A program made the translations under genes and the position numbers. DNA of 64,000 bases from a virus (taxonomy: Duplodnaviria > Caudoviricetes): IMG/VR virus record IMGVR_UViG_3300049580_000022, positions 2,017-66,016 of that record; one strand, 5' to 3'. Below the pieces are notes generated by a model. The model did no database searches, was not told where the DNA came from, and was given only the letters and a program-made list of their open reading frames with translations. The first letter of the stretch is position 1. Every line of letters starts with the position of its first letter. This document shows, piece after piece, positions 6,211-58,883 of this stretch.

Positions 6211-6222
6211 GAAAGACGAAAG
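6211..6222 (+). promoter_or_regulatory. GAAAGACGAAAG leader motif, copy 1
   Basis: Exact 12-mer, 11 nt before ATG 6234. Confidence 0.65.
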
Positions 6223-6233
6223 AAAGAAGACCC

Positions 6234-7415
6234 ATGACAGACGAAACCTCAGCCCCTATTGGGCACAACTCGCAAGAGACGCTTCCTACCGTCGATGCGC
6301 TCATTGACGATCTGACCGAGCGCAACAAAGATGCGCTTGAACATGTGGATGCGCTGCTGGAACGCGGCCAAGAATTTCTCGTTATCGAGAACGATGAACA
6401 GGATGCGCAAGCCACCGAGTTCATGGTGAAGGTGCGCGCCCGCTGGAAGGCCAGCGAGGCCGAGCGTGTGGCGGAGAAAGCGCCTTACGATGATCGCGCG
6501 GGTGCCATCCATGCGTTCTTCAAGACCCGCATTCTGGACCTCATTGGATTGGCGCCGGCGAACAAGGATGAATCGTTCGATCCGACACAGCGCGCGGACC
6601 TTGGTATCGGCCCGCGGGTGAACATGGCGCAGACGATCTACAAGCGCCGCAAGGTCGAAGAGGAACGCAAGCGCCGCGAAGAAGAGGCGCGCAAGCTCCG
6701 GGAGGCCGAGGAAGCCGCGCGCCGGGCGCGGGAGGTGGAAGCCCAACGCCAGCGTGAGGAAGAGGAACGGGCGCGCAGGGCCCGTGAGGAAGCCGAGCGC
6801 AAGGCCCGTGAAGAGGCCGAGCGCGCCAAGCGGGAGGCGGATGCCGCAGCGGCCAAAGCCCGTCAGGAGGCCGAGGAAGCCGCCGCAGCCGCAGCCCGCA
6901 AGCGGAACGCCTCCGCCAAGGCCGAAGCCGAAAAGGCCGCTCAGGAGGTCCGCAAGGCCGCTCAGGAGCGCGAGGAAGCCGCCCGGAAGGAAGCCGAGCG
7001 GCTGGCGCAAGAAGAGGCTGAGCGCCGCCGCAAGGCCGCTGTGGCGGAAGCGGAAGCCCAGGCACGGGAAGAAGAGCGCCAACGCAAGGCCCGTGAGGAA
7101 GAGAACCGGCTGGCCGAAGAGCGCGCCAAGGCCGAAGCGGCTGCGGCTGCGACTGCGGCGGAGATGTCCCGCAACCGCGGGCAGAAAGGTGGTGTGTCCA
7201 GCCTGCGCACCCGCGTCACCTTCCGGGACGTGGATCGTGAAAAGCTCGATTACGCCAAACTTGGCCCATATTTCAAAGACGATCACATCAAGGTCGCGCT
7301 CAACGCCTTCAAGGATGCCAACAAGGCGACGGTCCAGAATGGCATCAAGACCGGCAACCAGCCGATTGATGGGGTGATCTTCTACGAAGACACCGTGAAC
7401 AGTGGGAGGGCGTGA
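6234..7415 (+). CDS. Phage recombination-module coiled-coil protein (PIGHN N-terminus) with long E/R/K/A helix
   Basis: MTDETSAPIGHNS...ERVAEKAPY; ~150 aa of EEAERKAREEA-type repeats; C-terminal SSLRT...IDGVIFYED. Confidence 0.75.
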   Translation: MTDETSAPIGHNSQETLPTVDALIDDLTERNKDALEHVDALLERGQEFLVIENDEQDAQATEFMVKVRARWKASEAERVAEKAPYDDRAGAIHAFFKTRILDLIGLAPANKDESFDPTQRADLGIGPRVNMAQTIYKRRKVEEERKRREEEARKLREAEEAARRAREVEAQRQREEEERARRAREEAERKAREEAERAKREADAAAAKARQEAEEAAAAAARKRNASAKAEAEKAAQEVRKAAQEREEAARKEAERLAQEEAERRRKAAVAEAEAQAREEERQRKAREEENRLAEERAKAEAAAAATAAEMSRNRGQKGGVSSLRTRVTFRDVDREKLDYAKLGPYFKDDHIKVALNAFKDANKATVQNGIKTGNQPIDGVIFYEDTVNSGRA

Positions 7416-7657
7416 TGGCCGAGAGAATGGGTGTCTGTTCAGGGTGCGTTTTCTTCCAGTCCAATCCGAAGCTGGACGGAACGACCTTTGAAGGCGGAAC
7501 ATGCCGGATCAATCCGCCAGTCGTGCCATTCATGGATGTGCGGATATTTCTGGATGACGGCCAAGAAAATTCTAGTTCCACGCTTTCCAGCGGCTGGCCG
7601 CACACGCCGTATGATGGATGGTGCGGAAAGTTTGAGGCGCGCCGTGGACAAGGATAG
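7412..7657 (+). CDS. Small Cys-rich phage protein
   Basis: CSGC...GTCRINPP...WPHTPYDGWCGKF; GTGA overlap with the upstream gene. Confidence 0.65.
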   Translation: MMAERMGVCSGCVFFQSNPKLDGTTFEGGTCRINPPVVPFMDVRIFLDDGQENSSSTLSSGWPHTPYDGWCGKFEARRGQG

Positions 7658-7853
7658 CGTCCATCTCGCACTCGGAAAGCACTTCGGCCATCCGGTGTCG
7701 CGCGAGCTTGCCATTGTGATGACGGCTATCCTGGCGCTTCCGAAGGATGACCGTTGCCGGATCGCGGATGCCTGCGAGGCATTCTTTTGCCCGCGGTGCG
7801 GCCAAGAAGACCCGACATCAGTTCACTTATTTTTCTGCGGCTTTGACGATTAA
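7644..7853 (+). CDS. Hypothetical protein (CPRC motif)
   Basis: GTG start overlapping the upstream stop; fills the gap before recT. Confidence 0.5.
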   Translation: MDKDSVHLALGKHFGHPVSRELAIVMTAILALPKDDRCRIADACEAFFCPRCGQEDPTSVHLFFCGFDD

Positions 7854-7871
7854 CCGAACGAGGAACCCATA

Positions 7872-8987
7872 ATGGACCAACACCCCAAAATGCCGGAGGT
7901 AAATTTGTCTCCGGAGAATTTGCCAGCGCATATCACGACCGACGACTTGCATATGGCTGGCTTGCCGCAGGGCATCAAGATGAACAGCGGCCTTGCGCTT
8001 CTTTTCAACAATCCGCTTTACGAGCGCTGCAAAAACGTAGCGGCAGCGATGGCGCGGGCGAAAGGCTTTACGCCAGATCATCTGCTTGGCAACGAAGCGG
8101 CGTGTTTCGCCGTCATCAGTCTGTCGATTGGCTGGAACCTCAACCCCTACATGGTGGCGCGCTCTACCTATCAGACGCCCGGCGGCAATCTTGGATTCGA
8201 GGGGAAATTAATTCAGGCAATTTTGGAGAACAGCGGCGCGATCGAGGGCCGCGTTGAGTTCGAGCATTTCGGAGATTGGGACCGTATCCTTGGCAAGTTC
8301 ACTCTTCAAACCAGCCAGAAAACGAACAAGAAATATCCCGTTCCGGCATGGAAGGAAGAAGACGAAGAAGGGTTGGGCGTCATCGTTCGCGCGCAGGTGC
8401 GCGGCGAAGCCAAGCCGCGCGAAGAGAAGTTCTATCTCAAGGAGTTCTGGCCGCGCAATTCCACGCTCTGGCCGCTGCGTCCCAAACAGCAGATTTGCTA
8501 CGCGAGCGTGCGCGCCTTCTCCAACATCGCAACGCCTGGGTTGCTGATGGGCATTCCCTTCGATGTGGACCCCACGGACTTCTACTCCGGCGAGCCAATG
8601 CAGGAGTTGAATCCACGTCCCGCGCGCCCGGAGCGCAACGAGTTCGTCCGCAAAGTCGAAGATATCAAGGATTCTTCGCTCACGTCTGGCGAAAAAGAGC
8701 CGGAGAAGGAAGAGCCGCAAGATGTCACAACGCAGGAGGATTCCGTCGAGGCCGAAGACGAAAGCCAGGATGGTCATACGGCGGAGTCGCAGGAAGAAAC
8801 CGCGCTTGATCGTGGCAAGCGCATCCTTGCCAGCCTTACCAAGGTGACGGACATCGCGAGCCTTCGCGAGACGATCCGTGAAGAACTTGAAGACGACGCC
8901 GATCTGGTGGAGTGGACGAAGGTTTGCAATGCACGGTCGGACGCTCTGATGTCGAAGGCGCCGGGCGCGAAGAACAAGAAAAAATGA
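7872..8987 (+). CDS. recT: RecT-family single-strand annealing protein
   Basis: PDHLLGNEAACFAVISLSIGWNLNPYMVARSTY...GFEGKLIQAIL...RNSTLWPLRPKQQICYASVRAF; acidic C-terminal tail. Confidence 0.8.
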   Translation: MDQHPKMPEVNLSPENLPAHITTDDLHMAGLPQGIKMNSGLALLFNNPLYERCKNVAAAMARAKGFTPDHLLGNEAACFAVISLSIGWNLNPYMVARSTYQTPGGNLGFEGKLIQAILENSGAIEGRVEFEHFGDWDRILGKFTLQTSQKTNKKYPVPAWKEEDEEGLGVIVRAQVRGEAKPREEKFYLKEFWPRNSTLWPLRPKQQICYASVRAFSNIATPGLLMGIPFDVDPTDFYSGEPMQELNPRPARPERNEFVRKVEDIKDSSLTSGEKEPEKEEPQDVTTQEDSVEAEDESQDGHTAESQEETALDRGKRILASLTKVTDIASLRETIREELEDDADLVEWTKVCNARSDALMSKAPGAKNKKK

Positions 8988-9400
8988 AAGCGCCGTTCTG
9001 CCCAATGTGTGCGCGCATCTCGCGGCTTACCACAGGTTCGGAAGTCTATCCGCACCGGCCCGATTTGCGCGCCACGCATTACTACAAATGCGACGGCTGC
9101 GGCGGAAGCGTGGGCGTTCATAAAGGAACGCTGCGTCCGCTTGGGACGCCAGCCACCGCCGAACTACGCAGGGCGCGTTCACTCTTGCACGATGAACTTC
9201 TCGACCCGCTTTGGAAGGGCGGCGCGGTATCGCGATCTATCGTCTATGCGTATCTGGCACAACACATGGGGCTTTCCACAAAGAAGATGCATGTTGGCAT
9301 GTTCAATTTGGTTCAATGCCGGGAGGCGTGGAAAATTCTCAAGGGAAAGAAAGCCGCGGATATTCAGGCGTGGAAAAGCAACCAAACAAAAGGCGCGTAG
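8984..9400 (+). CDS. Zinc-finger protein, DUF3268-like
   Basis: CPMC...GSEVYPHRPDL...YKCDGCGGSVGVHKGTLRPLGTPATAELRRAR..H...DPLWK...HVGMF. Confidence 0.8.
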   Translation: MKAPFCPMCARISRLTTGSEVYPHRPDLRATHYYKCDGCGGSVGVHKGTLRPLGTPATAELRRARSLLHDELLDPLWKGGAVSRSIVYAYLAQHMGLSTKKMHVGMFNLVQCREAWKILKGKKAADIQAWKSNQTKGA

Positions 9401-10077
9401 ATGTCCGCAAGCCTCCCGTGTCGGCCCGGCTCAAGCTCCATCCGCAAGGTGTTCGAGGCATCTGCGGATGGTGCGGTCTGCCTGTCACGGAAACCACATC
9501 GAAGCGCGGCTGGCTCAAGTTCTGGCATGATGCCTGCTCTGCTGAGCGTACGATCATTGAACAGCCAGCCGCCGCACGGGAAGCACTCTTCAAACGTGAT
9601 CGCGGGGTGTGCGTGGATTGCGGCGAGGATTGGAGCCAAAAGGTGCGCTTCGTTCCTGAGTTCTACGCGCAGGCATGGCAGCGGGATCGCGCCGAAGAGG
9701 GAGAGTTCTGGACGCTTGGACCGGATGGCAAGAGATTTGTCCACCTATCCCGTGTGCATGGCGCCCCTTACGTCTCTCTCATTACCGTTTCTCTTTGGCA
9801 CGCCGATCACGCCGTTCCGCTTTGGGAGGTCGCACATCTTCCAGATATCAAGCGCCTGGAATATTTCATGCTCGCCAACCTGCTTACACGGTGCGAGCGA
9901 TGCCACATCATCAAGAGCCGTGAGGAAGCGGCGCGGCGGGCGAAGTTTGACCGCATGGCGCAAGAGCGCGTCACAAAATCCCAGCAGAAATTGAAATGGG
10001 GAAGCCGCCCCATGAAAAGCGGCAATCGTTTTCCGCCGCGCGGATCGCGGCCAATGAAGGGGAAAAACCGTGAGTGA
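9370..10077 (+). CDS. HNH endonuclease with zinc-binding motifs (start uncertain)
   Basis: CGWC, LFKRDRGVCVDCG, WHADHAVPL, NLLTRCERCHIIKSREEA. Confidence 0.75.
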   Translation: MEKQPNKRRVDVRKPPVSARLKLHPQGVRGICGWCGLPVTETTSKRGWLKFWHDACSAERTIIEQPAAAREALFKRDRGVCVDCGEDWSQKVRFVPEFYAQAWQRDRAEEGEFWTLGPDGKRFVHLSRVHGAPYVSLITVSLWHADHAVPLWEVAHLPDIKRLEYFMLANLLTRCERCHIIKSREEAARRAKFDRMAQERVTKSQQKLKWGSRPMKSGNRFPPRGSRPMKGKNRE

Positions 10078-10468
10078 GAATATGAGAGGCAAGAGGCGCC
10101 CGTCCGATATAGATATTGCAATCGGTCGGCGGCTTCGTATGGCGCGCGCCATCCACATGAAGAGCCAGACTGATGTTGCAAAGGCTATCGGCCTGACCTT
10201 CCAGCAAATGCAGAAATATGAGAACGGTCTGAACCGCATTTCTGCGGCGACGTTGCTCAAAGTCGCGGCCTATTTTGGCGAAAGCACTTCCTATTTTCTC
10301 GAAGCCATCACTGATGGGGAAGTCTCAGCGGTCAAAGAGCAGAAGAACCTATCGGCAGACATGCTCATGGTGGCGATGAAGCTTGATCGGTTGCCGCCCA
10401 AAGAGCGCAGCGCGATCACGTCGCTAATTCATTCGGTGGATGAGCTTTTGAAGGAGAAATTGGCATGA
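10070..10468 (+). CDS. XRE-family HTH regulator (alphaproteobacterial type)
   Basis: DIAIGRRLRMAR...SQTDVAKAIGLTFQQMQKYENGLNRISAATL. Confidence 0.9.
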   Translation: MSENMRGKRRPSDIDIAIGRRLRMARAIHMKSQTDVAKAIGLTFQQMQKYENGLNRISAATLLKVAAYFGESTSYFLEAITDGEVSAVKEQKNLSADMLMVAMKLDRLPPKERSAITSLIHSVDELLKEKLA

Positions 10469-12180
10469 GCAAGATGGTCATTCCGGGCGCGGCGCTCGAA
10501 CAGCACACCATTGTTCTGGGCAAAACCCGCGCGGGCAAATCCTCGAAGATGCGCTACCTCGTAGAGCATCTGCTGGAAGGCGGCATTCCAACAATCGTGA
10601 TCGATCCCAAGGGTGACTGGTGGGGCATCAAGTCTTCCGCCGATGGCAAGACGCCCGGCTATCCGGTCGTGATCTTCGGCGGCGAACATGCAGACGTTCC
10701 CATCAATGAGCATTCCGGTGCGGCGGTCGCGGAGCTTGTGGCGACAAGCAACCGTCCGTGCGTGATCGACTTGGGCGGCTGGATGGTGCGTCCGCGCACA
10801 CGCTTCTTCATCGACTTCGCCTCCACGCTCTTCAAGCTCACGAAGGGGCGCCGCTGCCTTGTGATTGATGAAGTTCACAACTTCGCACCGCAAGGCAAGG
10901 TGATGGACCCGGAAGCGGGCAAGATGTTGCATTGGGCCAACCGGCTGGCGAGCGAAGGTGCAGGCAAAGGGCTTATCCTATTGTCGGCCTCGCAGCGTCC
11001 CCAGAAGGTGCATAAGGATTTTGTCACATCAAACGAAACGCTGATCGCGTGCCGGGTCATTCACAACCTCGACCGAGGTGCCATCAAGGAGTGGATTGAC
11101 GGCTGTGCTGATCCGGCAATCGGCAAGGAAGTTCTCACGGGCTTGGCGCAATTGCAGCGTCCGCAAGCCTATGTGTGGTCGCCGGAGATTGGCTTCGGTC
11201 CCAAGCTGGTGGAGTTTCCGCTGTTCTCCACCTACGATTCCTTCAAGCCGCAGGATCATCGGACAGGCAGCTTGAAAGGCTGGGCATCGGTCGATTTGGC
11301 GGATGTGAAAGACAAGCTTGCCAAGGTGGTTGAAGAAGCCAAGGCGAACGATCCGAAAGAACTCAAGGCCAAGGTCGCAAGCTTGGAGAAGGCGCTTGCG
11401 GAAAAGAACGCCGTGAAGACGGTGGATGAGGGCACGGTCACGGATGCGCACAACAGCGGATATGAAACCGGTTATTTGAAAGGGCATGAAGATGGTTTCA
11501 AACTTGCGGCCAACGCGATGGTGAAGAATGCCGCCGATGTGATTGCAGCCGTCCGCATCGTTCCTCCCGAATATGTGGTGCCAAATGCAATTCCGCAGAT
11601 GACAAGTGGCGCGAGAAAGAAGCTCGTTCCTCAATCAACAGAATCCCAAGTGCCCGTTTCAACGCAGGCGGCGGCTTCGCGTTTCCATCTGAGTCAAGCG
11701 CGCGCTACGAAAGTGGATGGTATCAGCGCGCCTATGCAACGCATCCTGAACTCAGTCGGGTTCTGGAATTCGGTTGGCACACCGCAGCCCTCCCGCGCGC
11801 AAGTCGCTGTCGTTGCCGGTTACAGCCCAAGCTCCGGCGGTTTCAACAATCTGGTCGGCAAGCTCAATACCGAAGGTCTGTTGCGCATTCCTGGCGCAGG
11901 CCGTGTTGAATTGACGGAGAATGCGCCATGCGAAATCATGGGTGGCAGCGATGCGGTAAGCAAGCTGCGCTCCGTTCTGAGCGCGCCACAGCAAAAGCTT
12001 GTCGATAGTATGGGGTCGGAAGCCATGACGCGCGAGCAACTGGCGAGCCTCACTGGTTATTCTGCGGCAAGCGGAGGTTTTAACAATCTCATTGGATCGC
12101 TCTGCACTCTCACGGTCTTTACCAAACCTGCGGCGGGGTTCGTGGAGCTATCCGATTGGGCAAAGGAGGTTCTGCTGTAA
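10465..12180 (+). CDS. HerA/DUF87-like P-loop ATPase with tandem C-terminal winged-helix repeats
   Basis: Walker A GKTRAGKS; IVIDPKGDWWG; Walker B LVIDEVHNFAPQ; ASQRPQKVHK; two GYSxxSGGFNNLxG repeats. Confidence 0.8.
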   Translation: MSKMVIPGAALEQHTIVLGKTRAGKSSKMRYLVEHLLEGGIPTIVIDPKGDWWGIKSSADGKTPGYPVVIFGGEHADVPINEHSGAAVAELVATSNRPCVIDLGGWMVRPRTRFFIDFASTLFKLTKGRRCLVIDEVHNFAPQGKVMDPEAGKMLHWANRLASEGAGKGLILLSASQRPQKVHKDFVTSNETLIACRVIHNLDRGAIKEWIDGCADPAIGKEVLTGLAQLQRPQAYVWSPEIGFGPKLVEFPLFSTYDSFKPQDHRTGSLKGWASVDLADVKDKLAKVVEEAKANDPKELKAKVASLEKALAEKNAVKTVDEGTVTDAHNSGYETGYLKGHEDGFKLAANAMVKNAADVIAAVRIVPPEYVVPNAIPQMTSGARKKLVPQSTESQVPVSTQAAASRFHLSQARATKVDGISAPMQRILNSVGFWNSVGTPQPSRAQVAVVAGYSPSSGGFNNLVGKLNTEGLLRIPGAGRVELTENAPCEIMGGSDAVSKLRSVLSAPQQKLVDSMGSEAMTREQLASLTGYSAASGGFNNLIGSLCTLTVFTKPAAGFVELSDWAKEVLL

Positions 12181-12356
12181 TGGGAAAAGCAACCGGTCAT
12201 CCGAAGTGCAAGCTGTGTGGCGAAGAGCATCCTCTCGGTCGCTGCCCGAAGTTCTACAAATCGTCGCTGGCCGATAAGGTCCGTGAGATTGAGCGCCGCC
12301 CGCCGAAGCCAAAAAAGAAAAAGCCGGGGAAGCGCAAGGCCGCCCCGGCTGAATAA
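12180..12356 (+). CDS. Small basic CCHC zinc-knuckle protein
   Basis: CKLCGEEHPLGRC, Lys-rich tail, TAATG coupling to the ATPase. Confidence 0.6.
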   Translation: MGKATGHPKCKLCGEEHPLGRCPKFYKSSLADKVREIERRPPKPKKKKPGKRKAAPAE

Positions 12357-13418: not shown

Positions 13419-13509
13419 GACCGGCGCTTCCTTGTGAAAGAGGATGAGGCCGGATGGCGAAGGAAAAGGTGGAACGTCGCTCCGGCCTTCTTTCTTTCGT
13501 CGTCGTCTT

Positions 13510-13881
13510 TTACTGCGCAGGCTGGCAGAGCGCCCCGATGGCTGCGTTATTCAGCTTCACCCGCAGAATCGTGTCGTCTGTATCTCCCACGATATGCCGC
13601 ACAGCGCCAGCCCAATCCCGCTCATTGAGCGCGGCCAGCACATCTTCCTTCGTGAGGTCTTGCACGCCAGTCGCAGTGATCTTGCCCAGATGGTAATGGA
13701 TGATCTTCACTTCATCGCAGACGAAGGCGCGCAGCGGGATCGAGGCGTTGGGAACCGGATTAACTGACGCCATCGGCACCGCGGCTTGCTGCGTCCCCAT
13801 CAGGCTCGCGCACCCGTTCAGGGTGAGAAGCGATGTCAGAATCGACACGATCACGCGCTTGTTGTGCAAGGTCGATTTCAT
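13510..13881 (-). CDS. Lipoprotein, o-spanin (Rz1-like)
   Basis: MKSTLHNKRVIVSILTSLLTLNG-C lipobox; overlaps the Rz-like gene; GGAC/GGAG-rich leader. Confidence 0.65.
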   Translation of the reverse strand: MKSTLHNKRVIVSILTSLLTLNGCASLMGTQQAAVPMASVNPVPNASIPLRAFVCDEVKIIHYHLGKITATGVQDLTKEDVLAALNERDWAGAVRHIVGDTDDTILRVKLNNAAIGALCQPAQ

Positions 13882-28908: not shown

Positions 28909-28937
28909 ATTCGCTCCGGGCGTTAAGCTTCTTTCTC

Positions 28938-28949
28938 CTTTCGTCTTTC
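28938..28949 (-). promoter_or_regulatory. GAAAGACGAAAG leader motif, copy 2
   Basis: Exact; intergenic, 29 nt before the GNAT ATG. Confidence 0.65.
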
Positions 28950-41965: not shown

Positions 41966-41977
41966 CTTTCGTCTTTC
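41966..41977 (-). promoter_or_regulatory. GAAAGACGAAAG leader motif, copy 3
   Basis: Exact; downstream of the capsid terminator, 75 nt before ATG 41890. Confidence 0.65.
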
Positions 41978-42026: not shown

Positions 42027-42058
42027 AAAAAAAGAGGGGCAGCATTTCTGCCGCCCCT
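42027..42058 (-). terminator. Intrinsic terminator after the major capsid gene
   Basis: AGGGGCGGCA-GAAA-TGCTGCCCCT followed by C and T7. Confidence 0.85.
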
Positions 42059-43617: not shown

Positions 43618-44211
43618 CTATTCGTCGCTCGCAGCGATGGGCTGGCGAACGCCTACTTTCGTCTTTCGCGACATGGTGATTGGCCCGAAGGCATCGCCAC
43701 CTTCAGCCCGGAGGTTGTGATCGCTGATGTGCGATTGCACCAAGGACTGGACCTGACGTTGACGCAGGCTGCGATAGTAAGCCCGCTTTTGCTCGAAGAG
43801 CGGGCGCGGCATCTCGCAGAGGACCAGATCGCCCTGCTTGATGACTTCGCCCAAGGATTTGGTTTGCACGGACGGGAACTTGCTGCGTTCGCCCGCGGGA
43901 ATGCTGCTGAACGGACGCGGGCGCCAGCCTTGGCGGGATTGGTTCGCCACGTTCTTCGCGTCGGCCTTCCCGACAAGATCGGTGCGTATCCAGCGCTGCA
44001 CCATGTTGGGACGCGCCGGCGGCGCATCGAGCGCGCCCGGCGGCGTCCACTCCTGCGGCCACTGATCGTGCACCTCGTTGTCGAAGTGCGACATGGCGTC
44101 GTGAAGATCGTGCATCCCGTGGTGCATCGGCTGATTGTTCTCGACCATCTTCGGCTTCTTGGTCGAGGACGGCGCAGCGGCGGCGGGAGATTGTGCGGGT
44201 CTGCGGACCAT
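43618..44211 (-). CDS. Conserved head-module protein
   Basis: WTPPGALDAPPARP..VQRWIR...D..NV....QGW...GDLVLCEMP...RAYY. Confidence 0.8.
   Translation of the reverse strand: MVRRPAQSPAAAAPSSTKKPKMVENNQPMHHGMHDLHDAMSHFDNEVHDQWPQEWTPPGALDAPPARPNMVQRWIRTDLVGKADAKNVANQSRQGWRPRPFSSIPAGERSKFPSVQTKSLGEVIKQGDLVLCEMPRPLFEQKRAYYRSLRQRQVQSLVQSHISDHNLRAEGGDAFGPITMSRKTKVGVRQPIAASDE
43656..43667 (-). promoter_or_regulatory. GAAAGACGAAAG leader motif, copy 4
   Basis: Exact; within the 3' end of the upstream CDS, 62 nt before ATG 43593. Confidence 0.45.
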
Positions 44212-45326
44212 TAGGCTTGTGCCCTTTCTTTTGCGGCAAGCTGGCGTTTGTCGAACAGCCATTGTCTGCGGTGGGCCGGAATAGCCGGGTCCATGCCAAA
44301 GCGTCTCATCTCGCGGAGGTCCGCATTGTCCAGCTTCACCTCCTTGGGATTGACGGGTTGGCGCTGGACGCCGCTTGTGCCGCTGGGGACTGGGGCTGCG
44401 CCGCTACCGTTGCCGCGGGTGCGCGTGCCGGTGGCGATGGCGCGACCGTCCGTGGTCTTGATGATGCCCGGATGCAGGCGGTTGAACCGCTTGCCGAGTT
44501 CCACGAAATACTCCGGCGTATCCTTGTCGAGCTTGCCTTCGGCGGAGAGGTCACGATCAAGGGCGCGCAAGACCGCTGCCTTGCTGGCGTATTTCGGGTC
44601 CGTAAACCACTTGTTGTGCTGCAAGAACTGAGGGGTGAGCTTGGAGCCTTGCTGTTGGGCAGGCGCGGCCTTGGTCTGGGCGCGCACAACCTGATCGACC
44701 ACCGGATTGCCAGCGGCGTCACGCGGCGCGCGGGCAAGCAAAGCATTGGCGCGCGCTTTCACATCGGCGCGCTGGTGGGCGATGGTCTGCAAATCCACCG
44801 CGTTCTGCCGCTGGTTGGCGACCAGATCGGCCAGGTCGTTCGTGAGGCGCACAACCTTCTTGGAATCGCCTGCATCCTGGGCGGCTTCCAGATCGGCATT
44901 CAGGCGGTCACGTTCGGCCTTGAAGCGCTCTTCATCGCGTTTCGCTACGGCCTCCCGCGCATCGAGCGCGTTGGCTTCGCCCACGACAATCTGCACGTCC
45001 TTGGGGTCGAAGATGATTTCACCTTCGGCCTGGGCTGCGGCGGGGGCGGCTTCTTCCGCAGCGGGTTCTTCGCCCTCGTCAATGATTGGGGATGGTTCGG
45101 ATTCTTCCTCCGCGACCTTGAGGTCGGGATCATCCGCAAAAGGATCGTCCAAATCCTTCTCGCTGGCCGGGCGCTTCTTGGACGAACGCCGCTCGCTTTC
45201 GGCGGCTATTTCGTCATCGAAATTCAGGTCATCCGTTTCGGTATCGAAATCGGGATCGGGATTGCCACGGAGGTCCGTGAAGTCCTCGAAGTCGTCTTCG
45301 GCGGCGGCGGTGCGGCGCGGTGCCAT
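44211..45326 (-). CDS. Scaffolding protein (putative)
   Basis: Acidic N-terminus, coiled coil, NKWFTDP, VKL...MRRFGM...W; between portal and capsid genes; AAGGAG Shine-Dalgarno. Confidence 0.75.
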   Translation of the reverse strand: MAPRRTAAAEDDFEDFTDLRGNPDPDFDTETDDLNFDDEIAAESERRSSKKRPASEKDLDDPFADDPDLKVAEEESEPSPIIDEGEEPAAEEAAPAAAQAEGEIIFDPKDVQIVVGEANALDAREAVAKRDEERFKAERDRLNADLEAAQDAGDSKKVVRLTNDLADLVANQRQNAVDLQTIAHQRADVKARANALLARAPRDAAGNPVVDQVVRAQTKAAPAQQQGSKLTPQFLQHNKWFTDPKYASKAAVLRALDRDLSAEGKLDKDTPEYFVELGKRFNRLHPGIIKTTDGRAIATGTRTRGNGSGAAPVPSGTSGVQRQPVNPKEVKLDNADLREMRRFGMDPAIPAHRRQWLFDKRQLAAKERAQA

Positions 45327-45398
45327 TGCATCTCCTTGCGGAGCCGCCCGGCGCACACGCGCGCGATGTCAGCCCCTTCGTCTGGCGTTCGACATCTT

Positions 45399-45410
45399 CT
45401 TTCGTCTTTC
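45399..45410 (-). promoter_or_regulatory. GAAAGACGAAAG leader motif, copy 5
   Basis: Exact; intergenic, 72 nt before the scaffold ATG. Confidence 0.65.
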
Positions 45411-45436
45411 TTCTTTCGGGAGGAAGCGTTGCCCGG

Positions 45437-45667
45437 TTAGGCAAGCTCGACATCAACGGCGCAGTCGCGTCCGTTGAATTGGCCGACATTGCACAGAAGG
45501 TGGACTCCTTTCAAGAGTCTGTCCGGTGGGACATGTCCCTTCCGCACCTCGTAAGCGTGGATGTAGAGGTCGTGAGGATAGCCGTCGAGCTTGAGGAACC
45601 CATGCCCTTTGTCCCGGCTATACCAGATGACCTCGGCCCGATGTTTCGATTTTGCGTGCGCGCTCAT
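45437..45667 (-). CDS. Cold-shock (CSD) domain protein
   Basis: VIWYSRDKGHGFL (RNP1-like), DLYIHAYEV (RNP2-like), AVDVEL. Confidence 0.85.
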   Translation of the reverse strand: MSAHAKSKHRAEVIWYSRDKGHGFLKLDGYPHDLYIHAYEVRKGHVPPDRLLKGVHLLCNVGQFNGRDCAVDVELA

Positions 45668-47543: not shown

Positions 47544-47555
47544 CTTTCGTCTTTC
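47544..47555 (-). promoter_or_regulatory. GAAAGACGAAAG leader motif, copy 6
   Basis: Exact; intergenic, 3 nt before ATG 47540. Confidence 0.65.
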
Positions 47556-51243: not shown

Positions 51244-51255
51244 CTTTCGTCTTCC
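51244..51255 (-). promoter_or_regulatory. Leader motif variant GGAAGACGAAAG
   Basis: 11/12 match, abutting ATG 51243. Confidence 0.55.
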
Positions 51256-51467: not shown

Positions 51468-53188
51468 CGCCGCGCTCCGTAGAATTGTCTGGACGGCCGG
51501 CGGATGCGCGCCTTGGCCTCTGCTTCTTCGTCTATATCCGATCCCAACTCCACCCGGTAGGTCTGGCGGACGTAGATCATGGCGCTTGTCACTGTGTCGG
51601 GTAGATCGTCGCTATCGTCGGTCCCGTCGAAGCGGCACTCGGCGCATTCCTTGATGACATCCTGCGCCCAATTGCGGTTCATATACCAGACGGCCCCTTG
51701 CTCAAGCACAAGGCTTGCCATCACGGCGCGGGCGTATTTGCCCATTTCCTGTCCGCGGCCGCCGCGCGGTGCCATCCACGGCCAGATAGGCAACGGCCTG
51801 GGCTTGCGGATTTTGCGTAGCTCCTTGATGAGCCAGATGCCGGATGCCTTGTTTTCGATCAGGATACGGTCGGGGTGCATCCCGATCTTGGTTTCGTCTA
51901 TGTCTGCCGCCATTTCTGGGTCGGTCGGGTTCATCTCCAAGAGCGCGCGCTTCGCTTCTTTGCCGCCCCATGCGCCCACAAGCACATGCTTCTTGAGGTC
52001 AGGCGCTTCCACGCGATCCTTCCAGCGATCGAGCAGGATCATGTGCATTGAGGGGCGTTCGCCATCGCGCTCGCGATGCTCGAATACGCCCCATGTTGTG
52101 CGCGCGCTGTAATCGTTCCGAGTCTTCTCATCGAAGGCGGTATCATACATTTGGAAGACAAACAGGCATTGCGGCGGGTCCTTCTTCGGCCACAGCCGCC
52201 AGTGCTGCGACTTAAGGACGAATCCTTGGCTGCGGGTGGGCGTGCCCTGGTAGAGCGCGTTCCAATCGTCTTCGGTTAGCTGGGCTTTGGAGCGCAGCAA
52301 TTCTTCCTTGCTCCATCGCACGGGGCTGAAGGAATCGCCTTCCTCAAATTTGTGCACATGTTCCATCGCGCCGTATTCCTTGGCGACGATGTAGAGCTTG
52401 CGGGCGCTATCTTTGTCCAGGAAGGCCGGGATGTTGAGGACGGTCCATTTGTCCGCACCGGTGTTCTGTCTGGCCTGATCCAGCAGTCGGCCCGGCAAAT
52501 CGTCTTTCGCCCACCGCGTCATGCTCAGCACGATGGCGTTCTTTTCCGGCTGGCGCCGCGTGTAGAAGCCCGGCCCCCACCAGTTCCAAAGCCGGTCTTT
52601 CACCAGCTTGGAATCCTTGTCCTGTTCGGACATCGCGTCATCTACAACGCCCAGGTTAAAGCCTATGCCAGCAATGCCAGTGGTGACGCCGGCGGCTTTG
52701 TATTCGCCCTGCTTGCGGCGCTGGATGGTGGACTCCACTTGCGCCAGCGAAGCCCCGATTTCTTCCAAGCGCCAGCGTCCCGCGGCGCGTGCGGACTTGG
52801 ACATCTGCACACCGGGGAATATCCACCGGTAGGCGGGCAGCGCCATAAGCTCCCGCACATCGAGGGAGAAATTTCGGGAGAGCGGCGTGGAGTGGCCGAC
52901 CTGAAGGATTTTGTCCGATGGGAATTTGCCGCCCCACCATGAGGGCAGGAATATGGATGCCATCTGGGATTTGCCGGCGCGTGGCGGCATGGCGATCATC
53001 AGGCGGTCTATTTCGCCACGCGCGACCGCTTCAAGATGTTCGGCTATGACGCAGTGGACTTCCTCGATGGTAAACCACGGCGCGACTTCACGGATAAACT
53101 CGATCAGGCTTTCGCGGCATAGGACGCGCCGCATCTGCGCCCAATCGGTATCAAGCTCTTCGGGTGTCGCTATGGGGGTTCCAGCCAT
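51464..53188 (-). CDS. terL: Terminase large subunit
   Basis: Walker A MPPRAGKS; Walker B VVDD; VLSMTRWAKDDLPG; WNALYQGTP; YDTAF...DYSA; IENKASG; DDLPDTVTSA. Confidence 0.95.
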   Translation of the reverse strand: MAGTPIATPEELDTDWAQMRRVLCRESLIEFIREVAPWFTIEEVHCVIAEHLEAVARGEIDRLMIAMPPRAGKSQMASIFLPSWWGGKFPSDKILQVGHSTPLSRNFSLDVRELMALPAYRWIFPGVQMSKSARAAGRWRLEEIGASLAQVESTIQRRKQGEYKAAGVTTGIAGIGFNLGVVDDAMSEQDKDSKLVKDRLWNWWGPGFYTRRQPEKNAIVLSMTRWAKDDLPGRLLDQARQNTGADKWTVLNIPAFLDKDSARKLYIVAKEYGAMEHVHKFEEGDSFSPVRWSKEELLRSKAQLTEDDWNALYQGTPTRSQGFVLKSQHWRLWPKKDPPQCLFVFQMYDTAFDEKTRNDYSARTTWGVFEHRERDGERPSMHMILLDRWKDRVEAPDLKKHVLVGAWGGKEAKRALLEMNPTDPEMAADIDETKIGMHPDRILIENKASGIWLIKELRKIRKPRPLPIWPWMAPRGGRGQEMGKYARAVMASLVLEQGAVWYMNRNWAQDVIKECAECRFDGTDDSDDLPDTVTSAMIYVRQTYRVELGSDIDEEAEAKARIRRPSRQFYGARR

Positions 53189-53565: not shown

Positions 53566-54186
53566 TCAGCCCTGCTTTGTGCTTCGTGCGTCTGGTTCAT
53601 GGCCCTTGCCGCCCTCGATCACCTGAATGCCTTTCGCCTGCTTTTTGCGATAGCGCTCAAGGCGCTCAAGGATGCGCGGGTCTTCCACATTCTTGGGAGC
53701 GGCTAGATCGGCCGGCGGCGGAGGCTGGAACTCGGTCTTGAACATGCCCTCTTCCATGCCCAGCAGATGCAGGGCGCGGAGCGCGGAGGCGGGCTTGTGA
53801 ACGAATACGTCCATGACCTCAACCTTTTTCGTGGCGGGGTTGAGGCGGCGTTTGCGCAAAGGTTTTTCACCCATGCAGACCTGGACGTTGTGAACGAGCT
53901 TATCCAGCACCCACTCCCGGCGCCCGACGCTCGCCTCGATCGTCTCAACCATGCGCTGGGATACCTTGCGCGCCGCCTGTTCTTTCAGGTAGCCGATGCG
54001 CGCGGAGACGAGGGGGTGATTGTAGAGGTGCGATGCGCTCACCTTGGCGGCGCGCGCCTTACTGAAGCCCGCCTGTCCATACGCCTCCTTGATGGACCCG
54101 CAGGCTCCCGTGGCGACGAGCTGGGCGAATAGCTCCCACTTGCCGCGATACAAGGGGACATTTGGGGGCGTGGGGTGCGTTAACAT
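53566..54186 (-). CDS. terS: Terminase small subunit
   Basis: ELFAQ...EAYGQAGFS...ASHL..HP.VSARI..L; WVLDKL; ALRALHLLG...GMF. Confidence 0.8.
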   Translation of the reverse strand: MLTHPTPPNVPLYRGKWELFAQLVATGACGSIKEAYGQAGFSKARAAKVSASHLYNHPLVSARIGYLKEQAARKVSQRMVETIEASVGRREWVLDKLVHNVQVCMGEKPLRKRRLNPATKKVEVMDVFVHKPASALRALHLLGMEEGMFKTEFQPPPPADLAAPKNVEDPRILERLERYRKKQAKGIQVIEGGKGHEPDARSTKQG

Positions 54187-54392
54187 TCGTCTCTCGGATT
54201 GCTGGGAACGATGAACTCGAAAAGCAGGATAAGCATGATGCCGAACGGCCAAAGCGCCACGATCCACGGGTCTTGACGCTCCCAGCCATCTATCCCGCGC
54301 CGCTGATTATGCGCAGAGATATCCACACCCATCAGGCACGCGCCAGCCAAGTAAAGCCACACGCCGATTATCCATCCCCACATGGCGCTCAC
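54180..54392 (-). CDS. Small 2-TM protein
   Basis: Two hydrophobic segments; GTGA coupling. Confidence 0.5.
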   Translation of the reverse strand: MSAMWGWIIGVWLYLAGACLMGVDISAHNQRRGIDGWERQDPWIVALWPFGIMLILLFEFIVPSNPRDEC

Positions 54393-57133: not shown

Positions 57134-57139
57134 CCTTCA

Positions 57140-57779: not shown

Positions 57780-57993
57780 GAAGCCTCTCTTTCCACGCCC
57801 GGTCGGCGCGTTCGCGTTCGATTTCCTCCCGCTTGGCGCATTCGTCCAGGTAAAGCCCGCGCCTATGGAATTGCAGCGGAATGCCCAGCGTGAGGAACAC
57901 GATGCCCCACACGATGGGATGTTCGAGCGGTAGAAGGTTGGCGACGATCAAGATCGCGCCAGCCGATAACAGGAAGTCCGTGAGAGTTTTCAC
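57769..57993 (-). CDS. Small 2-TM protein
   Basis: Two hydrophobic segments. Confidence 0.5.
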   Translation of the reverse strand: MKTLTDFLLSAGAILIVANLLPLEHPIVWGIVFLTLGIPLQFHRRGLYLDECAKREEIERERADRAWKERLRDN

Positions 57994-58382
57994 GCATTGT
58001 TTCCTTTCGCTCGCTCGGCGGCAAAAATAGCTTTCACCTTGGCACGCATCTCAATGAGGGCGTCTGGATCGTAGGTAATGATATCCGTATAAAAATTGAT
58101 CGACGGCTCAAGCGTGAAAAGCATGTGAAGCTGTGGGTGATAGTTCGGATACACCTTGTCCAAGCTTGGAGAGTATTTCCACGGCCAATCTTTATAGGCT
58201 TCTCGTTCGCCTTCCGTCATGGGTTTGCGGCGGTTCAGCGCGACCGGCAACATGTCTTCCATGCTGGTGCCCCAAAATCCGAGGGTTTCGATATCGTCGG
58301 CTAAATTGCTTGTCGTGAGATTGCAGACAAGACACTTCGCACTTTGATAATCGCGGAGAATTACAAGGCGTAGCGCGATCAT
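57990..58382 (-). CDS. Hypothetical protein
   Basis: Coupled tandem ORF. Confidence 0.5.
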   Translation of the reverse strand: MIALRLVILRDYQSAKCLVCNLTTSNLADDIETLGFWGTSMEDMLPVALNRRKPMTEGEREAYKDWPWKYSPSLDKVYPNYHPQLHMLFTLEPSINFYTDIITYDPDALIEMRAKVKAIFAAERAKGNNA

Positions 58383-58678
58383 TTTGCACCATCCTTCTTG
58401 TTGCGCAGTTCAATGCCAGCCTTCGCAGCCGTTCTTTCAAAACGGAAATTCTTGGGAATGAGATTGCCGTCCACATACACTGAGAATGTTTTGGCGTGGA
58501 AGCGGCGCTCAATCACGATCCGGGCATCATCGCTGCGCCACTCGCGGGACCACATGGCCGTCCGATAAAGGCGAAACGTGACACCAAGATATTTTCGCAT
58601 GTGCCCGGAGAGCAGTTGCGCGCTGCCGTGTTCTTCCCCCGGCACAAAGCCATCCGGGGATTTGAATTGTCTCATCAT
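58379..58678 (-). CDS. Hypothetical protein
   Basis: ATGA coupling. Confidence 0.55.
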   Translation of the reverse strand: MMRQFKSPDGFVPGEEHGSAQLLSGHMRKYLGVTFRLYRTAMWSREWRSDDARIVIERRFHAKTFSVYVDGNLIPKNFRFERTAAKAGIELRNKKDGAK

Positions 58679-58860
58679 GGGGTGCCTCTGAAATTCAGGA
58701 TTTCAAAGCTCTGGCGAATGATCTTTTGGAAAATCTCCCACTGCGTATCTGTCATTCGACAAAGCTTCTCGTAGGTTTCTGGGGTAATGGTGATGGTCGG
58801 CCCAAACTCATTGTTTCCGATAACGGTTGAGCTTTCTGCGTCTTCGATGGCAATTCGCAT
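58675..58860 (-). CDS. Hypothetical protein
   Basis: ATGA coupling; preceded by the leader motif. Confidence 0.5.
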   Translation of the reverse strand: MRIAIEDAESSTVIGNNEFGPTITITPETYEKLCRMTDTQWEIFQKIIRQSFEILNFRGTP

Positions 58861-58871
58861 CGGACTTCTAC

Positions 58872-58883
58872 CTTTCGTCTTTC
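58872..58883 (-). promoter_or_regulatory. GAAAGACGAAAG leader motif, copy 7
   Basis: Exact; 11 nt before ATG 58860; 8-bp hairpin at 58899-58924 just upstream. Confidence 0.65.

What the first reader, a model, noticed from the sequence alone, without database searches (positions are those of the whole stretch)
6211..58883. Recurrent sense-strand leader motif GAAAGACGAAAG (GAAAG-AC-GAAAG)
Seen: exact copies at 6211-6222 (+) and at 28938-28949, 41966-41977, 43656-43667, 45399-45410, 47544-47555 and 58872-58883 (all -). There is an 11/12 copy at 51244-51255 and a stuttered variant AAAGACGACGACGAAAG at 13494-13510. Every copy is on the local coding strand; 6 of 7 exact copies are intergenic, 3-75 nt ahead of a start codon, and several sit just past the previous stop. 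My rough expectation for this 12-mer at 60% GC over both strands is about 0.004 copies. Some downstream genes lack a GGAG Shine-Dalgarno. Inference: a phage-wide cis-regulatory code, either an RNA element (translation enhancer, antitermination or processing site) or a phage-specific promoter/operator. Candidate readers encoded here are the cold-shock, KTSC, MarR, XRE and small HTH proteins. I recognise no described motif.
Basis: partly seen in the sequence, partly recalled or inferred. Interest (0 to 1): 0.82.

Follow-up and report, generated by a model that had tools for sequence, protein, structure and literature searches.

The report
Start-associated purine repeat in a phage
A 12-base purine-rich word (GAAAGACGAAAG) sits on the coding strand at the head of eight gene blocks of an uncultivated 66-kb phage, and a related phage keeps a slightly different word at the same five places, so it is a real gene-expression signal, most like the still unexplained "start-associated sequences" of mycobacteriophages.

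Summary
There are 7 exact copies plus two 1-mismatch copies, against 0.29 expected. All lie on the coding strand. Six of the 7 are intergenic (p about 3e-5).

The window is nearly all of a complete 66-kb phage genome, probably from an alphaproteobacterial host. The unit is a heptad, GAAAGNN, repeated two or three times. Four copies lie 0-11 nt before an ATG that has no other Shine-Dalgarno (SD). Five lie 29-75 nt upstream of genes with their own SD, and one of these is inside a coding region.

The only usable close relative (portal 57% identical) has no copy of the 12-mer. It carries GRAAG-N3-GCAAG or (AAGC)n at the five orthologous positions, sense strand only. So position is conserved while the word is homogenised within each genome.

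Pairing with the 16S tail is weak (-4.9 kcal/mol, about background), so this is not an ordinary SD. I found no phage RNA polymerase, sigma factor or integrase.

An unannotated cold-shock-domain (CSD) gene lies 19 nt upstream of the largest repeat cluster in both phages.

Best reading (about 0.42): a single-stranded RNA landing pad for translation initiation at the head of translational units, possibly read by the CSD protein.

The closest known analogue is the Cluster K SAS. This scan earlier noted an SAS-like repeat in an unrelated Bacteroidota prophage.

The parts
6211..6233 (+). Class i copy. GAAAGACGAAAG plus AAAGAAGACCC, then the ATG at 6234 of a 393-aa gene. It begins 8 nt after the stop (6200-6202) of the exonuclease gene 4919-6202. 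There is no GGAG.
13494..13510 (-). Degenerate class ii copy, AAAGACGACGACGAAAG (the ACG unit is stuttered), followed by AAAGAAGG. It starts at the stop codon of gene 13510-13956 and ends 75 nt before the ATG at 13418.
28931..28949 (-). Class ii copy with three pentamers, GAAAGACGAAAGGAGAAAG. It lies 1 nt after the stop of the 79-aa gene 28951-29190. The 12-mer (28938-28949) ends 29 nt before the ATG at 28908 of a GNAT-like gene that has its own GGAG. Its orthologue in the relative reads GGAAGAGAGCAAGCA-ATG.
41966..41977 (-). Class ii copy, 48 nt downstream of the T-tract (to 42025) that follows the major-head-gene terminator hairpin and 75 nt before the ATG at 41890 (own SD, GAAAGGAG). The leader between the copy and the ATG is conserved in the relative, where CAAGCAAGCA directly follows the terminator.
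42035..42058 (-). Intrinsic terminator hairpin (10 bp, 7 of them G-C) followed by a T-run, after the major head protein gene 42082-42990.
43656..43667 (-). Class ii copy inside the 3' end of ORF 43618-44262, where it encodes R-K-T-K 13 codons before the stop. It lies 62 nt before the ATG at 43593 of a 195-aa gene with its own SD. The relative has CGAGCAAG at the same place in the orthologous ORF.
45396..45417 (-). The largest cluster, GAAAGAAGAAAGACGAAAGAAG (three heptads). It lies 19 nt after the stop of the CSD gene and about 70 nt before the real start (about 45326) of the scaffold-like 381-aa gene. It is fully unpaired in the minimum-free-energy fold. The relative has (AAGC)n at this place.
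45326..45395 (-). Structured leader of the scaffold-like gene. GGGGCTGA, GTGTGCGC and GGCGGCTC are conserved in the relative, and in both phages the AAGGAG SD is paired with an upstream CUCC/CUCU.
45437..45667 (-). Unannotated 76-aa cold-shock-domain protein gene, the candidate reader of the motif. Its orthologue in the relative (51% identity) occupies the same position.
47544..47555 (-). Class i copy. It lies 6 nt after the portal stop (47562-47564) and is followed by AAG and the ATG at 47540 of an 81-aa gene. There is no other SD. The relative reads TAA-GAAAGCGAGCAAGCA-ATG at the same junction.
51244..51255 (-). Class i copy matching 11 of 12 bases (GGAAGACGAAAG). It lies 2 nt after the stop of the 69-aa gene 51258-51467 and abuts the ATG at 51243.
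58872..58883 (-). Class i copy, 11 nt before the ATG at 58860. It heads a chain of overlapping small genes (58860 down to 57769). Here the second pentamer reads GAAAGG.

Best explanation
The motif acts in the mRNA. It is a U-free, purine-rich, single-stranded heptad repeat (GAAAGNN, two or three times) placed at the head of translational units of the long polycistronic transcripts. There it promotes de novo loading of ribosomes.

Where it lies 0-11 nt from an ATG (6211, 47544, 51244, 58872) it is the only ribosome-binding information. A GRAAG pentamer sits 7-11 nt from the ATG. That is the register expected for pairing with the terminal CUUUC of an alphaproteobacterial 16S rRNA (...CCUCCUUUCU-3').

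Where it lies 29-75 nt upstream (13494, 28938, 41966, 43656, 45399) it precedes leaders that carry their own SD, which is hairpin-sequestered in at least the scaffold-like gene. There it would serve as a standby or melting platform.

The word is kept identical within a genome but differs between related phages. The host ribosome alone is therefore unlikely to be the whole reader, and a lineage-specific trans factor probably recognises it. The adjacent phage cold-shock-domain protein is the best candidate: it is a single-strand binder with a footprint of roughly 6-7 nt per domain.

Shown: the non-randomness, the strand and position bias, the positional conservation with sequence turnover, the lack of another SD at class i sites, and the predicted single-strandedness.
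For: 1. Statistics: 9 matches against 0.29 expected. All are on the sense strand, and 6 of 7 exact copies are intergenic, p = 2.7e-5.

2. Position: every copy lies at the head of a gene or of a chain of overlapping genes, and often directly after the previous stop codon.

3. Class i starts: the four class i start codons have no GGAG or AGGA. In both phages all six class i sites carry a GRAAG 7-11 nt before the ATG.

4. 16S tail: likely host-clade 16S genes end in CCTCCTTTCT. Distant relatives use exact AGAAAGGA cassettes before their ATGs, so the GAAAG part of the anti-SD tail is in use in this phage group.

5. Comparative evidence: the relative keeps a sense-only element at all five comparable positions. 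These are after the portal stop, in the scaffold-gene leader, after the major-head terminator, in the ejection module, and inside the orthologous ORF.

6. Accessibility: predicted unpaired probability is 0.66 at the sites against 0.43 for random sense-strand windows (Mann-Whitney p = 7e-4). In the scaffold leader the repeat is fully open and the SD is paired in both phages.

7. Shape of the word: it has no dyad symmetry, and its 7-nt period is out of phase with the DNA helix.

8. Candidate reader: a CSD gene lies immediately upstream of the largest cluster in both phages.

9. Against a polymerase-based reading: no phage RNA polymerase, sigma factor or integrase appeared in Pfam or PHROGs scans of the called ORFs of roughly 100 aa or more and several smaller ones.
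Against: - Pairing of the 12-mer with the 16S tail is only -4.9 kcal/mol (-6.0 with AAGA). That is no better than the background median of -5.0 and weaker than GGAG at -5.8. The relative's (AAGC)n pairs at -0.3.
- An unstructured landing pad should tolerate sequence drift, yet seven copies are identical. That points to a sequence-specific reader which I have not identified.
- Fold z-scores of the leaders are not significant. The 41966 copy is predicted mostly paired (0.15). High predicted accessibility is also partly a by-product of purine-rich composition.
- The major head, portal and terminase genes lack the motif.
- A more distant relative (L169) has a CSD gene but no such motif.
- The comparison rests on one relative.
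- There are no transcript data.
Confidence: 0.42

Rival explanations
1. The motif is a phage-specific promoter or promoter core. The 12-15 bp word would be read by a phage-encoded or phage-modified RNA polymerase. It would start transcripts with 0-12 nt leaders (near-leaderless) at class i sites and with SD-bearing leaders at class ii sites.
For: - The word is strand-specific and lies at the head of gene blocks.
- One copy follows the strong terminator after the major head gene in both phages, the classic terminator-then-promoter layout.
- A word that is uniform within a genome but differs between relatives is what T7, T3 and SP6 promoters do (established knowledge).
- Genes with long leaders have an SD and genes with short leaders do not, as expected if transcripts start at the motif.
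Against: - No RNA polymerase or sigma factor was found among the ORFs scanned.
- Nothing is conserved upstream of the word.
- The distance to the ATG is 0, 3 or 11 nt, so a fixed start site cannot coincide with the AUG as leaderless translation needs.
- The word has no T and does not resemble sigma-70 or ECF elements. The sigma-70 scan finds nothing at the sites.
- There is no copy ahead of the terminase genes or at the early control regions.
- One copy is embedded in a coding region.
Confidence: 0.18
2. The motif is an ordinary ribosome-binding cassette with no special reader. It would be a weak, 5'-shifted SD (GAAAG pairing with the CUUUC tail) plus an A-rich spacer. Its identical copies would reflect copying or gene conversion between junctions, and the distant copies would be leftovers.
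For: - Exact repeated RBS cassettes are common in distant relatives. Examples are GAAAGGAGAAAGttATG three times in L154 and TGAGAAAGGA, TTAGAAAGGA and TAGAAAGGATAGA five of five times before an ATG.
- GAAAGAAG, one mismatch from GAAAGGAG, occurs 15 times in the window, 9 of them intergenic on the sense strand.
- Extensions longer than the 12-mer are shared: AAGACCC at 6211 and 41966, and AAGATG at 45399 and 47544. This suggests copying.
- The phage encodes RecT and an exonuclease.
Against: - Five of the nine sites are 29-75 nt from the start and have their own SD.
- These distant sites are positionally conserved in the relative with that genome's own word, which leftovers would not be.
- The part shared by all sites in the relative (GCAAG/AGCAAGCA) has no complementarity to 16S.
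Confidence: 0.15
3. The motif is a DNA-level protein site read in one orientation. It could be stoperator-like, with a phage repressor blocking elongation at asymmetric intergenic sites. Or it could be ops-like, with the non-template strand in the transcription bubble recruiting an elongation or antitermination factor such as the CSD protein.
For: - The word is an asymmetric 12-mer, oriented with transcription, in short intergenic gaps near stop and start codons, like the 13-bp stoperators of Cluster A mycobacteriophages. Their consensus co-evolves with the repressor (PMC9283540, PMC6550527).
- ops is also a 12-nt element specific to the non-template strand (established knowledge).
- XRE-type HTH and CSD proteins are encoded.
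Against: - No integrase or other sign of lysogeny was found.
- There is no copy at the divergent region 4369-4918 or at the upstream tract 63050-63540, where an operator at the early promoter would be expected.
- There are only 8-9 sites, concentrated in the head module.
- The copy after the major-head terminator lies downstream of the terminator, not upstream, which does not suit an antiterminator loading site.
Confidence: 0.12
4. The motif is an RNA processing or stability signal. It would be a cleavage site for a host or phage endoribonuclease that cuts the polycistronic mRNA into units, as T4 RegB cuts at GGAG. Or it would be a 5' stabiliser that binds a 30S subunit without translation, like STAB-SD (GAAAGGAGG) of cry3A.
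For: - The copies lie at intercistronic junctions and at the 5' ends of leaders.
- The word is purine-rich and SD-like, as are RegB targets and STAB-SD (PMC3014915 for RegB; STAB-SD from established knowledge).
- RNase J, against which such stabilisers act, occurs in Alphaproteobacteria (established knowledge).
Against: - No ribonuclease gene was recognised.
- The weak 16S pairing argues against stable 30S parking.
- Nothing in the sequence distinguishes this reading from the translation model.
Confidence: 0.08

Closest known systems
Start-Associated Sequences (SAS) of Cluster K mycobacteriophages (Pope et al. 2011, PMC3203893; survey of 188 genomes in PMC12699233)
   Same: - A short asymmetric word (13 bp there, 12 here), repeated almost exactly about 10 times per genome.
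- Almost always in one orientation, in tiny intergenic gaps, and often overlapping the previous stop.
- Immediately before mostly ATG starts.
- Absent from the host and from other phages.
- More conserved than pairing with 16S can explain.
- Its reader is unknown.
   Different: - SAS contains a canonical AGGAG core and sits 3-7 bp from the start in nearly all cases. Here there is no GGAG, and five of nine sites lie 29-75 nt upstream of genes with their own SD.
- SAS is confined to the non-structural arm. This motif is concentrated in the head module.
- SAS is conserved across subclusters, whereas this word changes in a relative with a 57%-identical portal.
- This word is an internal heptad repeat.
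- There is no counterpart of the ESAS inverted repeats.
Stoperators of Cluster A mycobacteriophages (L5 gp71 and relatives; PMC9283540, PMC6550527)
   Same: An asymmetric 12-13 bp site, oriented with transcription, in short intergenic gaps across the operons. The consensus differs between related phages.
   Different: Stoperators number 20-35 per genome, include the operator at the early lytic promoter, and belong to temperate phages with an identified repressor. None of these three features was found here.
Extended Shine-Dalgarno sequences and the STAB-SD mRNA stabiliser (GAAAGGAGG)
   Same: GAAAG is the 5' part of the full complement (AGAAAGGAGG) of the 16S tail CCUCCUUUCU. At class i sites a GRAAG sits at the matching register. 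STAB-SD shows that such a sequence can act far from a start codon.
   Different: The GGAGG core is missing. The predicted pairing (-4.9 kcal/mol) is at background level. The exact AC spacer and second pentamer have no rRNA partner.
Ribosome standby sites and unstructured A/C-rich translational enhancers
   Same: A single-stranded, U-poor stretch upstream of a structured ribosome-binding site, whose distance from the start codon can vary.
   Different: Standby sites need no particular sequence. Here seven copies are identical, which implies specific recognition.
HutP and TRAP type RNA sites (short triplets repeated at a fixed period, bound by oligomeric proteins)
   Same: A short purine-containing unit repeated at a fixed period (7 nt in hut mRNA), read on single-stranded RNA.
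   Different: Those sites are single attenuator sites per operon, and they are read by proteins for which no homologue was recognised here. This resemblance rests on my own knowledge and was not tested.

Membership tests
Cluster K Start-Associated Sequences (SAS) | A short asymmetric word repeated about 10-19 times per genome in one orientation | tested here: met
   There are 7 exact, 2 near and 1 stuttered copies, all on the sense strand.
Cluster K Start-Associated Sequences (SAS) | Virtually all copies lie 3-7 bp upstream of a start codon | tested here: not met
   Only 4 of 9 sites lie within 11 nt of a start. The others lie 29-75 nt away.
Cluster K Start-Associated Sequences (SAS) | Matches the consensus GGGATAGGAGCCC, including the AGGAG Shine-Dalgarno core | tested here: not met
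   The word is GAAAGACGAAAG and contains no GGAG.
Shine-Dalgarno sequence | Complementarity to the 3' end of 16S rRNA that gives pairing clearly above background | tested here: not met
   Pairing is -4.9 kcal/mol against a background median of -5.0, with GGAG at -5.8. The tail sequence was checked in two alphaproteobacterial MAGs. The true host is unknown.
Shine-Dalgarno sequence | Located at a fixed short distance (aligned spacing about 5-10 nt) from the start codon | tested here: inconclusive
   A GRAAG lies 7-11 nt before the ATG at all 4 class i sites and at 2 sites in the relative. The 5 class ii sites do not fit.
Stoperator (Cluster A type) | The same site also serves as the operator at the early lytic promoter of a temperate phage that encodes the cognate repressor | tested here: not met
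   There is no copy in the divergent or upstream control regions. No integrase was found. An XRE HTH protein exists, but no link to the motif is shown.
Phage-RNA-polymerase promoter (T7-like) | The phage encodes its own RNA polymerase or sigma factor | tested here: not met
   No RNA polymerase or sigma family appeared among the ORFs scanned with Pfam and PHROGs. Several proteins remain without any family, so absence is not proven.
Phage-RNA-polymerase promoter (T7-like) | Transcripts start at a fixed position relative to the word | not testable with these tools
Ribosome standby site | A single-stranded stretch upstream of a structured, SD-sequestering initiation region | tested here: inconclusive
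   At 45399 the repeat is fully unpaired and the SD is paired in both phages. Mean unpaired probability is 0.66 against 0.43. However, the fold z-scores are not significant, and the 41966 copy is predicted paired.

The most novel reading that the evidence does not exclude
The phage's own cold-shock-domain protein (45437-45667) may be a sequence-specific reader of heptad GAAAGNN repeats, on mRNA or on the non-template strand. If so, it defines a private post-transcriptional regulon for head-assembly genes. Word and reader would co-evolve: GAAAG with RNP motifs KGHGFL / LYIHAY in this phage, against GCAAG with KGYGFL / LFVHNS in the relative. That would give a first mechanism for 'start-associated' repeats in phages and a first sequence-specific regulatory role for a phage CSD protein.
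Probability: 0.15. Interest if true: 0.75.

Novelty: new variant of a known kind. Interest (0 to 1): 0.5.

Why it matters
Exact, oriented, start-linked repeats have been described in Cluster K mycobacteriophages since 2011. They were still called functionally unverified in 2025 (PMC12699233).

This is an independent example in an unrelated, probably alphaproteobacterial podovirus-like phage, and it adds three things:
- The positions are conserved while the word turns over between relatives, including one copy forced into a coding region. This argues for a trans-acting reader rather than the ribosome alone.
- The word has a heptad architecture that matches the footprint of a single-strand-binding OB or CSD domain.
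- A concrete candidate reader is encoded next to the largest cluster in both phages.

Together these turn an unexplained pattern into a small set of bench-testable hypotheses. If the element proves to be a portable, SD-independent translation or loading signal, it would also be useful for annotating start codons in uncultivated phages and as an expression part.

Tried and rejected
Tools that did not run:
About 30 contigs encoding portal homologues at 48-63% identity could therefore not be fetched.

Searches that found nothing useful:
- megablast against phage records.
- IMG/VR scans with the portal alone, the scaffold-like protein pair and the CSD pair.
- The portal profile found only one close IMG/VR fragment (L008, covering the region upstream of the portal only) and one MAG contig (L168). 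All other hits were at or below 46% identity.
- The exact 12-mer is absent from all 234 fetched loci.
- The 18-mer GAAAGACGAAAGAAGATG gives only single, apparently coding hits in six unrelated IMG/VR contigs.
- Rfam gave no match.
- The literature held no use of the word in a phage context.
- The two giant proteins (1574 and 1766 aa) have no PDB sequence relative.

Leads rejected:
- The 27 AGCAAGCAAG hits in the MAG that holds the relative's contig lie in ordinary coding contexts of an AT-richer genome. The 61% GC phage contig is probably mis-binned there, so this says nothing about the host.
- The second recurrent 12-mer, the palindrome TGGCGCGCGCCA, has 3 sites and is not above chance.
- The 11-nt CTGCGCAG repeats in L235 form a tandem array between 5.7 and 6.2 kb and are unrelated to this motif.
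- The 8-codon mini-ORF after the 45399 copy is not conserved in the relative.
- I found no sense-strand sequence complementary to the motif in non-coding DNA, so a phage antisense RNA partner is unlikely.
- Hfq (ARN)n and CsrA (GGA) site patterns do not fit the word. This was judged by inspection only.

Full report
**What the window is.** The window is bases 2017-66016 of a 66,016-bp IMG/VR virus record rated complete. The record has a 127-bp terminal repeat, which may be only an assembly overlap of a circular contig.

I built a codon-usage gene map and checked it with PHROGs and Pfam.
- A long minus-strand series runs from about 63.0 kb down to 12.4 kb. It holds small early-type genes, terminase small and large subunits (53566-54267, 51464-53188), portal (47562-50003), a GroES-like gene, a scaffold-like 381-aa gene, the major head protein (42082-42990), tail fibre and spike genes, ejection proteins and two giant polyvalent proteins.
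- A plus-strand block at 4919-12356 encodes an exonuclease, RecT, an HNH endonuclease, an XRE HTH protein and a HerA-like ATPase.
- A minus-strand block at 1-4368 encodes DnaB and DNA methyltransferases.

No RNA polymerase, sigma factor or integrase family was hit. The nearest cultured phages by portal (32-37% identity) infect Roseobacter, Pelagibacter and Caulobacter. Distant relatives sit in alphaproteobacterial MAGs. The host is therefore probably an alphaproteobacterium with about 60% GC.

One search finds the seven exact copies at the stated coordinates plus two 1-mismatch copies. Shuffles give a mean of 0.29 and a maximum of 2. This is the most frequent 12-mer in the genome.
- All copies are on the coding strand.
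- Six of the seven exact copies are intergenic, where only 12.8% of the window is intergenic (p = 2.7e-5).

The flanks show no conservation upstream of the word. Downstream there is a purine-rich continuation: AAGA in four copies, AAGACCC shared by 6211 and 41966, and AAGATG shared by 45399 and 47544.

The unit is a heptad. GAAAGNNGAAAG occurs nine times in the window, and no other spacing between two GAAAG occurs at all. Two sites carry three pentamers (28949-28931 and 45417-45396).

**Two classes of site.**
- Class i (6211, 47544, 51244, 58872). The word ends 11, 3, 0 and 11 nt before an ATG that has no GGAG or AGGA. At three of the four sites it begins 2-8 nt after the previous stop codon; at 58872 the gap is 52 nt.
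- Class ii (13494, 28938, 41966, 43656, 45399). The word lies 29-75 nt upstream of genes that have their own SD: GGAG, GAAAGGAG, ACGGAG or AAGGAG.
- The ATG that follows the 45399 copy opens only an 8-codon ORF.
- The 43656 copy lies inside ORF 43618-44262, which is a real gene because it is homologous to the relative's ORF.
- Every site heads a gene or a chain of overlapping, presumably translationally coupled, genes.

**Comparison with the one usable relative.** The portal profile found contig C25 of a MAG (L168 plus L262, 31,150 bp, 61% GC, portal 57% identical). That contig has no GAAAGACGAAAG. It does have AGCAAGCA five times at four places on the sense strand and never on the other strand. 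Those places are orthologous to window sites.

| Place | Relative | Window |
|---|---|---|
| After the portal stop | TAA-GAAAGCGAGCAAGCA-ATG | TGA-N6-GAAAGACGAAAG-AAG-ATG |
| Leader of the scaffold-like gene | (AAGC)n, with GGGGCTGA, GTGTGCGC and GGCGGCTC conserved downstream | GAAAGAAGAAAGACGAAAGAAG |
| After the major-head terminator | CAAGCAAGCA, ahead of a conserved leader | GAAAGACGAAAG |
| Ejection module | TGA-AGGAAGAGAGCAAGCA-ATG | TGA-T-GAAAGACGAAAGGAGAAAG |
| Inside the orthologous ORF | CGAGCAAG | GAAAGACGAAAG |

Read as units, the window has GRAAG-N2-GAAAG and the relative has GRAAG-N3-GCAAG(CA). So the positions are conserved, even at the cost of changing a protein's C-terminal residues. 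The word is uniform within each genome and differs between them. That pattern needs either homogenisation between copies or selection by a reader that differs between the two lineages.

The other close fragment, L008, covers only the region upstream of the portal. There GGGCTGGGGC-ATG occurs twice, another private pre-ATG word.

**Is it just a Shine-Dalgarno?**
- For: 16S genes of two alphaproteobacterial MAGs that carry distant relatives end in CCTCCTTTCT. Distant relatives use exact AGAAAGGA-type cassettes before their ATGs. So GAAAG is the 5' end of the full SD in this group.
- For: at all six class i sites in the two phages a GRAAG lies 7-11 nt from the ATG. That is the register expected for pairing with the terminal CUUUC.
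- Against: the predicted duplex is only -4.9 kcal/mol (-6.0 with the AAGA extension). This equals the background median for random sense 25-mers (-5.0) and is weaker than a bare GGAG (-5.8).
- Against: the relative's shared part, GCAAG/AGCAAGCA, has essentially no complementarity (-0.3).
- Against: class ii sites are far from any start.

SD-type pairing can contribute at class i sites. It cannot explain the exact 12-mer or the class ii sites.

**RNA or DNA?** I could not get transcript data. The indirect evidence leans to RNA:
- the spacing to the ATG varies;
- there is no upstream conservation and no dyad symmetry;
- the 7-nt period is out of helical phase;
- the composition is U-free;
- predicted unpaired probability is 0.66 against 0.43 for random sense windows (p = 7e-4), although purine richness contributes to this and the 41966 copy is an exception;
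- in the scaffold-gene leader the repeat is open while the SD is paired with an upstream CUCC/CUCU in both phages, though the fold z-scores are not significant.

A promoter remains possible. The copy after the major-head terminator and the rule that long leaders have an SD and short leaders have none both fit it. However, no polymerase or sigma factor was found, nothing upstream is conserved, and the word does not resemble known host promoter elements. A stoperator-like operator is disfavoured because there is no copy at the early control regions and no lysogeny genes were found.

**A candidate reader.** While reading the 312-nt 'gap' upstream of the 45399 cluster I found an uncalled 76-aa ORF (45437-45667).
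- It has an orthologue at the same place in the relative (51% identity).
- The relative's protein passes the Pfam CSD threshold (2.9e-9).
- The two-sequence profile hits solved cold-shock proteins at 3e-9 to 1e-5.
- In both phages the gene ends just upstream of the largest repeat cluster (19 nt in the window).
- Cold-shock domains bind about 6-7 nt of single-stranded nucleic acid per domain and melt RNA structure (established knowledge). That suits a heptad repeat.
- The residues at the RNP1 and RNP2 positions differ between the two proteins (KGHGFL / LYIHAY against KGYGFL / LFVHNS).

This is circumstantial, with n = 2. A more distant relative (L169) has a CSD gene but no such motif.

**What is known.** The closest described class is the Start-Associated Sequences of Cluster K mycobacteriophages: a 13-bp asymmetric repeat, 11-19 copies, one orientation, 3-7 bp before mostly ATG starts, more conserved than rRNA pairing explains, and of unknown function (PMC3203893; still unverified in 2025, PMC12699233).

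This motif works like an SAS in layout but fails the membership tests. It has no AGGAG core, half of its copies are far from starts, it has a different sequence, and it lies in the structural rather than the non-structural module. Stoperators (PMC9283540, PMC6550527) share the oriented intergenic layout but not the other defining features.

This scan earlier recorded an SAS-like repeat in an unrelated Bacteroidota prophage (e1-686259). I reached the SAS comparison independently and read the primary paper myself.

**Verdict.** This is a real, selected, strand-specific expression signal and a new variant of the start-associated-repeat kind. The most likely mechanism (about 0.42) is an RNA landing pad for translation initiation at the heads of translational units, probably needing a lineage-specific reader. 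The rivals are a phage-specific promoter (0.18), an ordinary RBS cassette spread by copying (0.15), an oriented DNA protein site (0.12) and an RNA processing or stability signal (0.08).

Noticed in passing
window 45437-45667 (-): A 76-aa cold-shock-domain gene lies inside the head-morphogenesis module, between a GroES-like gene and the scaffold-like gene. My ORF model missed it, and the relative keeps it at the same place.
   Followed up: yes
window 45326-45395 (-) and L168:5050-5125: The roughly 70-nt leader of the scaffold-like gene is conserved between the two phages (GGGGCTGA, GTGTGCGC, GGCGGCTC). A hairpin pairs the AAGGAG SD with CUCC/CUCU, and the first stem looks compensated (GAUGUC/GACAUC against AGAUC/GAUCU). 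This may be a translational operator, as known for P22 scaffold autoregulation.
   Followed up: partly
window 41891-41965 (-) and L168:8491-8540: A second conserved leader (TCGTTxCCCTGAAA..GGGTTG) lies between the motif and the gene after the major head protein. In the window an anti-SD-like CUCCUCUC just 5' of the motif can pair with the downstream GAAAGGAG. CCUCC-like runs also precede the 45399 and 51244 copies, but this is not statistically secure.
   Followed up: partly
window 42035-42058 (-): A strong intrinsic terminator directly follows the major head protein gene. It is conserved in kind in the relative (L168:8441-8475), which suggests attenuation of the downstream head and tail genes.
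   Followed up: partly
loci L100, L103, L117, L122, L154, L188, L219: Distant relatives each carry their own exactly repeated pre-ATG cassette: TGAGAAAGGA, TTAGAAAGGAAA, GAAAGGAGAAAGTT, TAGAAAGGATAGA and GGAGACCTGAC. Each occurs 3-7 times and is always followed by an ATG. Private RBS cassettes seem common in this phage group.
   Followed up: partly
L008:2555-2575 and 5005-5030: The other close relative fragment has GGGCTGGGGC-ATGG before two genes: at the probable terminase start and before the gene that follows the 214-aa ORF downstream of it.
   Followed up: no
L235:5745-6245: A roughly 500-bp array of 11-nt CTGCGCAG-containing repeats lies in a Rhizobiales-MAG relative, about 5 kb downstream of the portal. 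It may be a repetitive coding segment.
   Followed up: no
window 14516-19240 and 19895-25195 (-): Two giant proteins (1574 and 1766 aa) flank a 222-aa ORF. The first matches only the C-terminal parts of PHROGs built from proteins of about 3400 aa. The second has an N-terminal lysozyme-like stretch. Neither has a PDB sequence relative.
   Followed up: partly
genome ends (G000:C1:1-127 and 65890-66016): The 127-bp 'direct terminal repeat' has the length of a common assembler k-mer. It may be a circular-assembly overlap rather than a physical terminal repeat.
   Followed up: no
G001 (the MAG that holds L168): The 61% GC phage contig C25 sits in a bin whose sampled contig stretches (20 x 310 nt) look clearly AT-richer by eye. 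It is probably mis-binned, so the bin gives no host assignment.
   Followed up: partly
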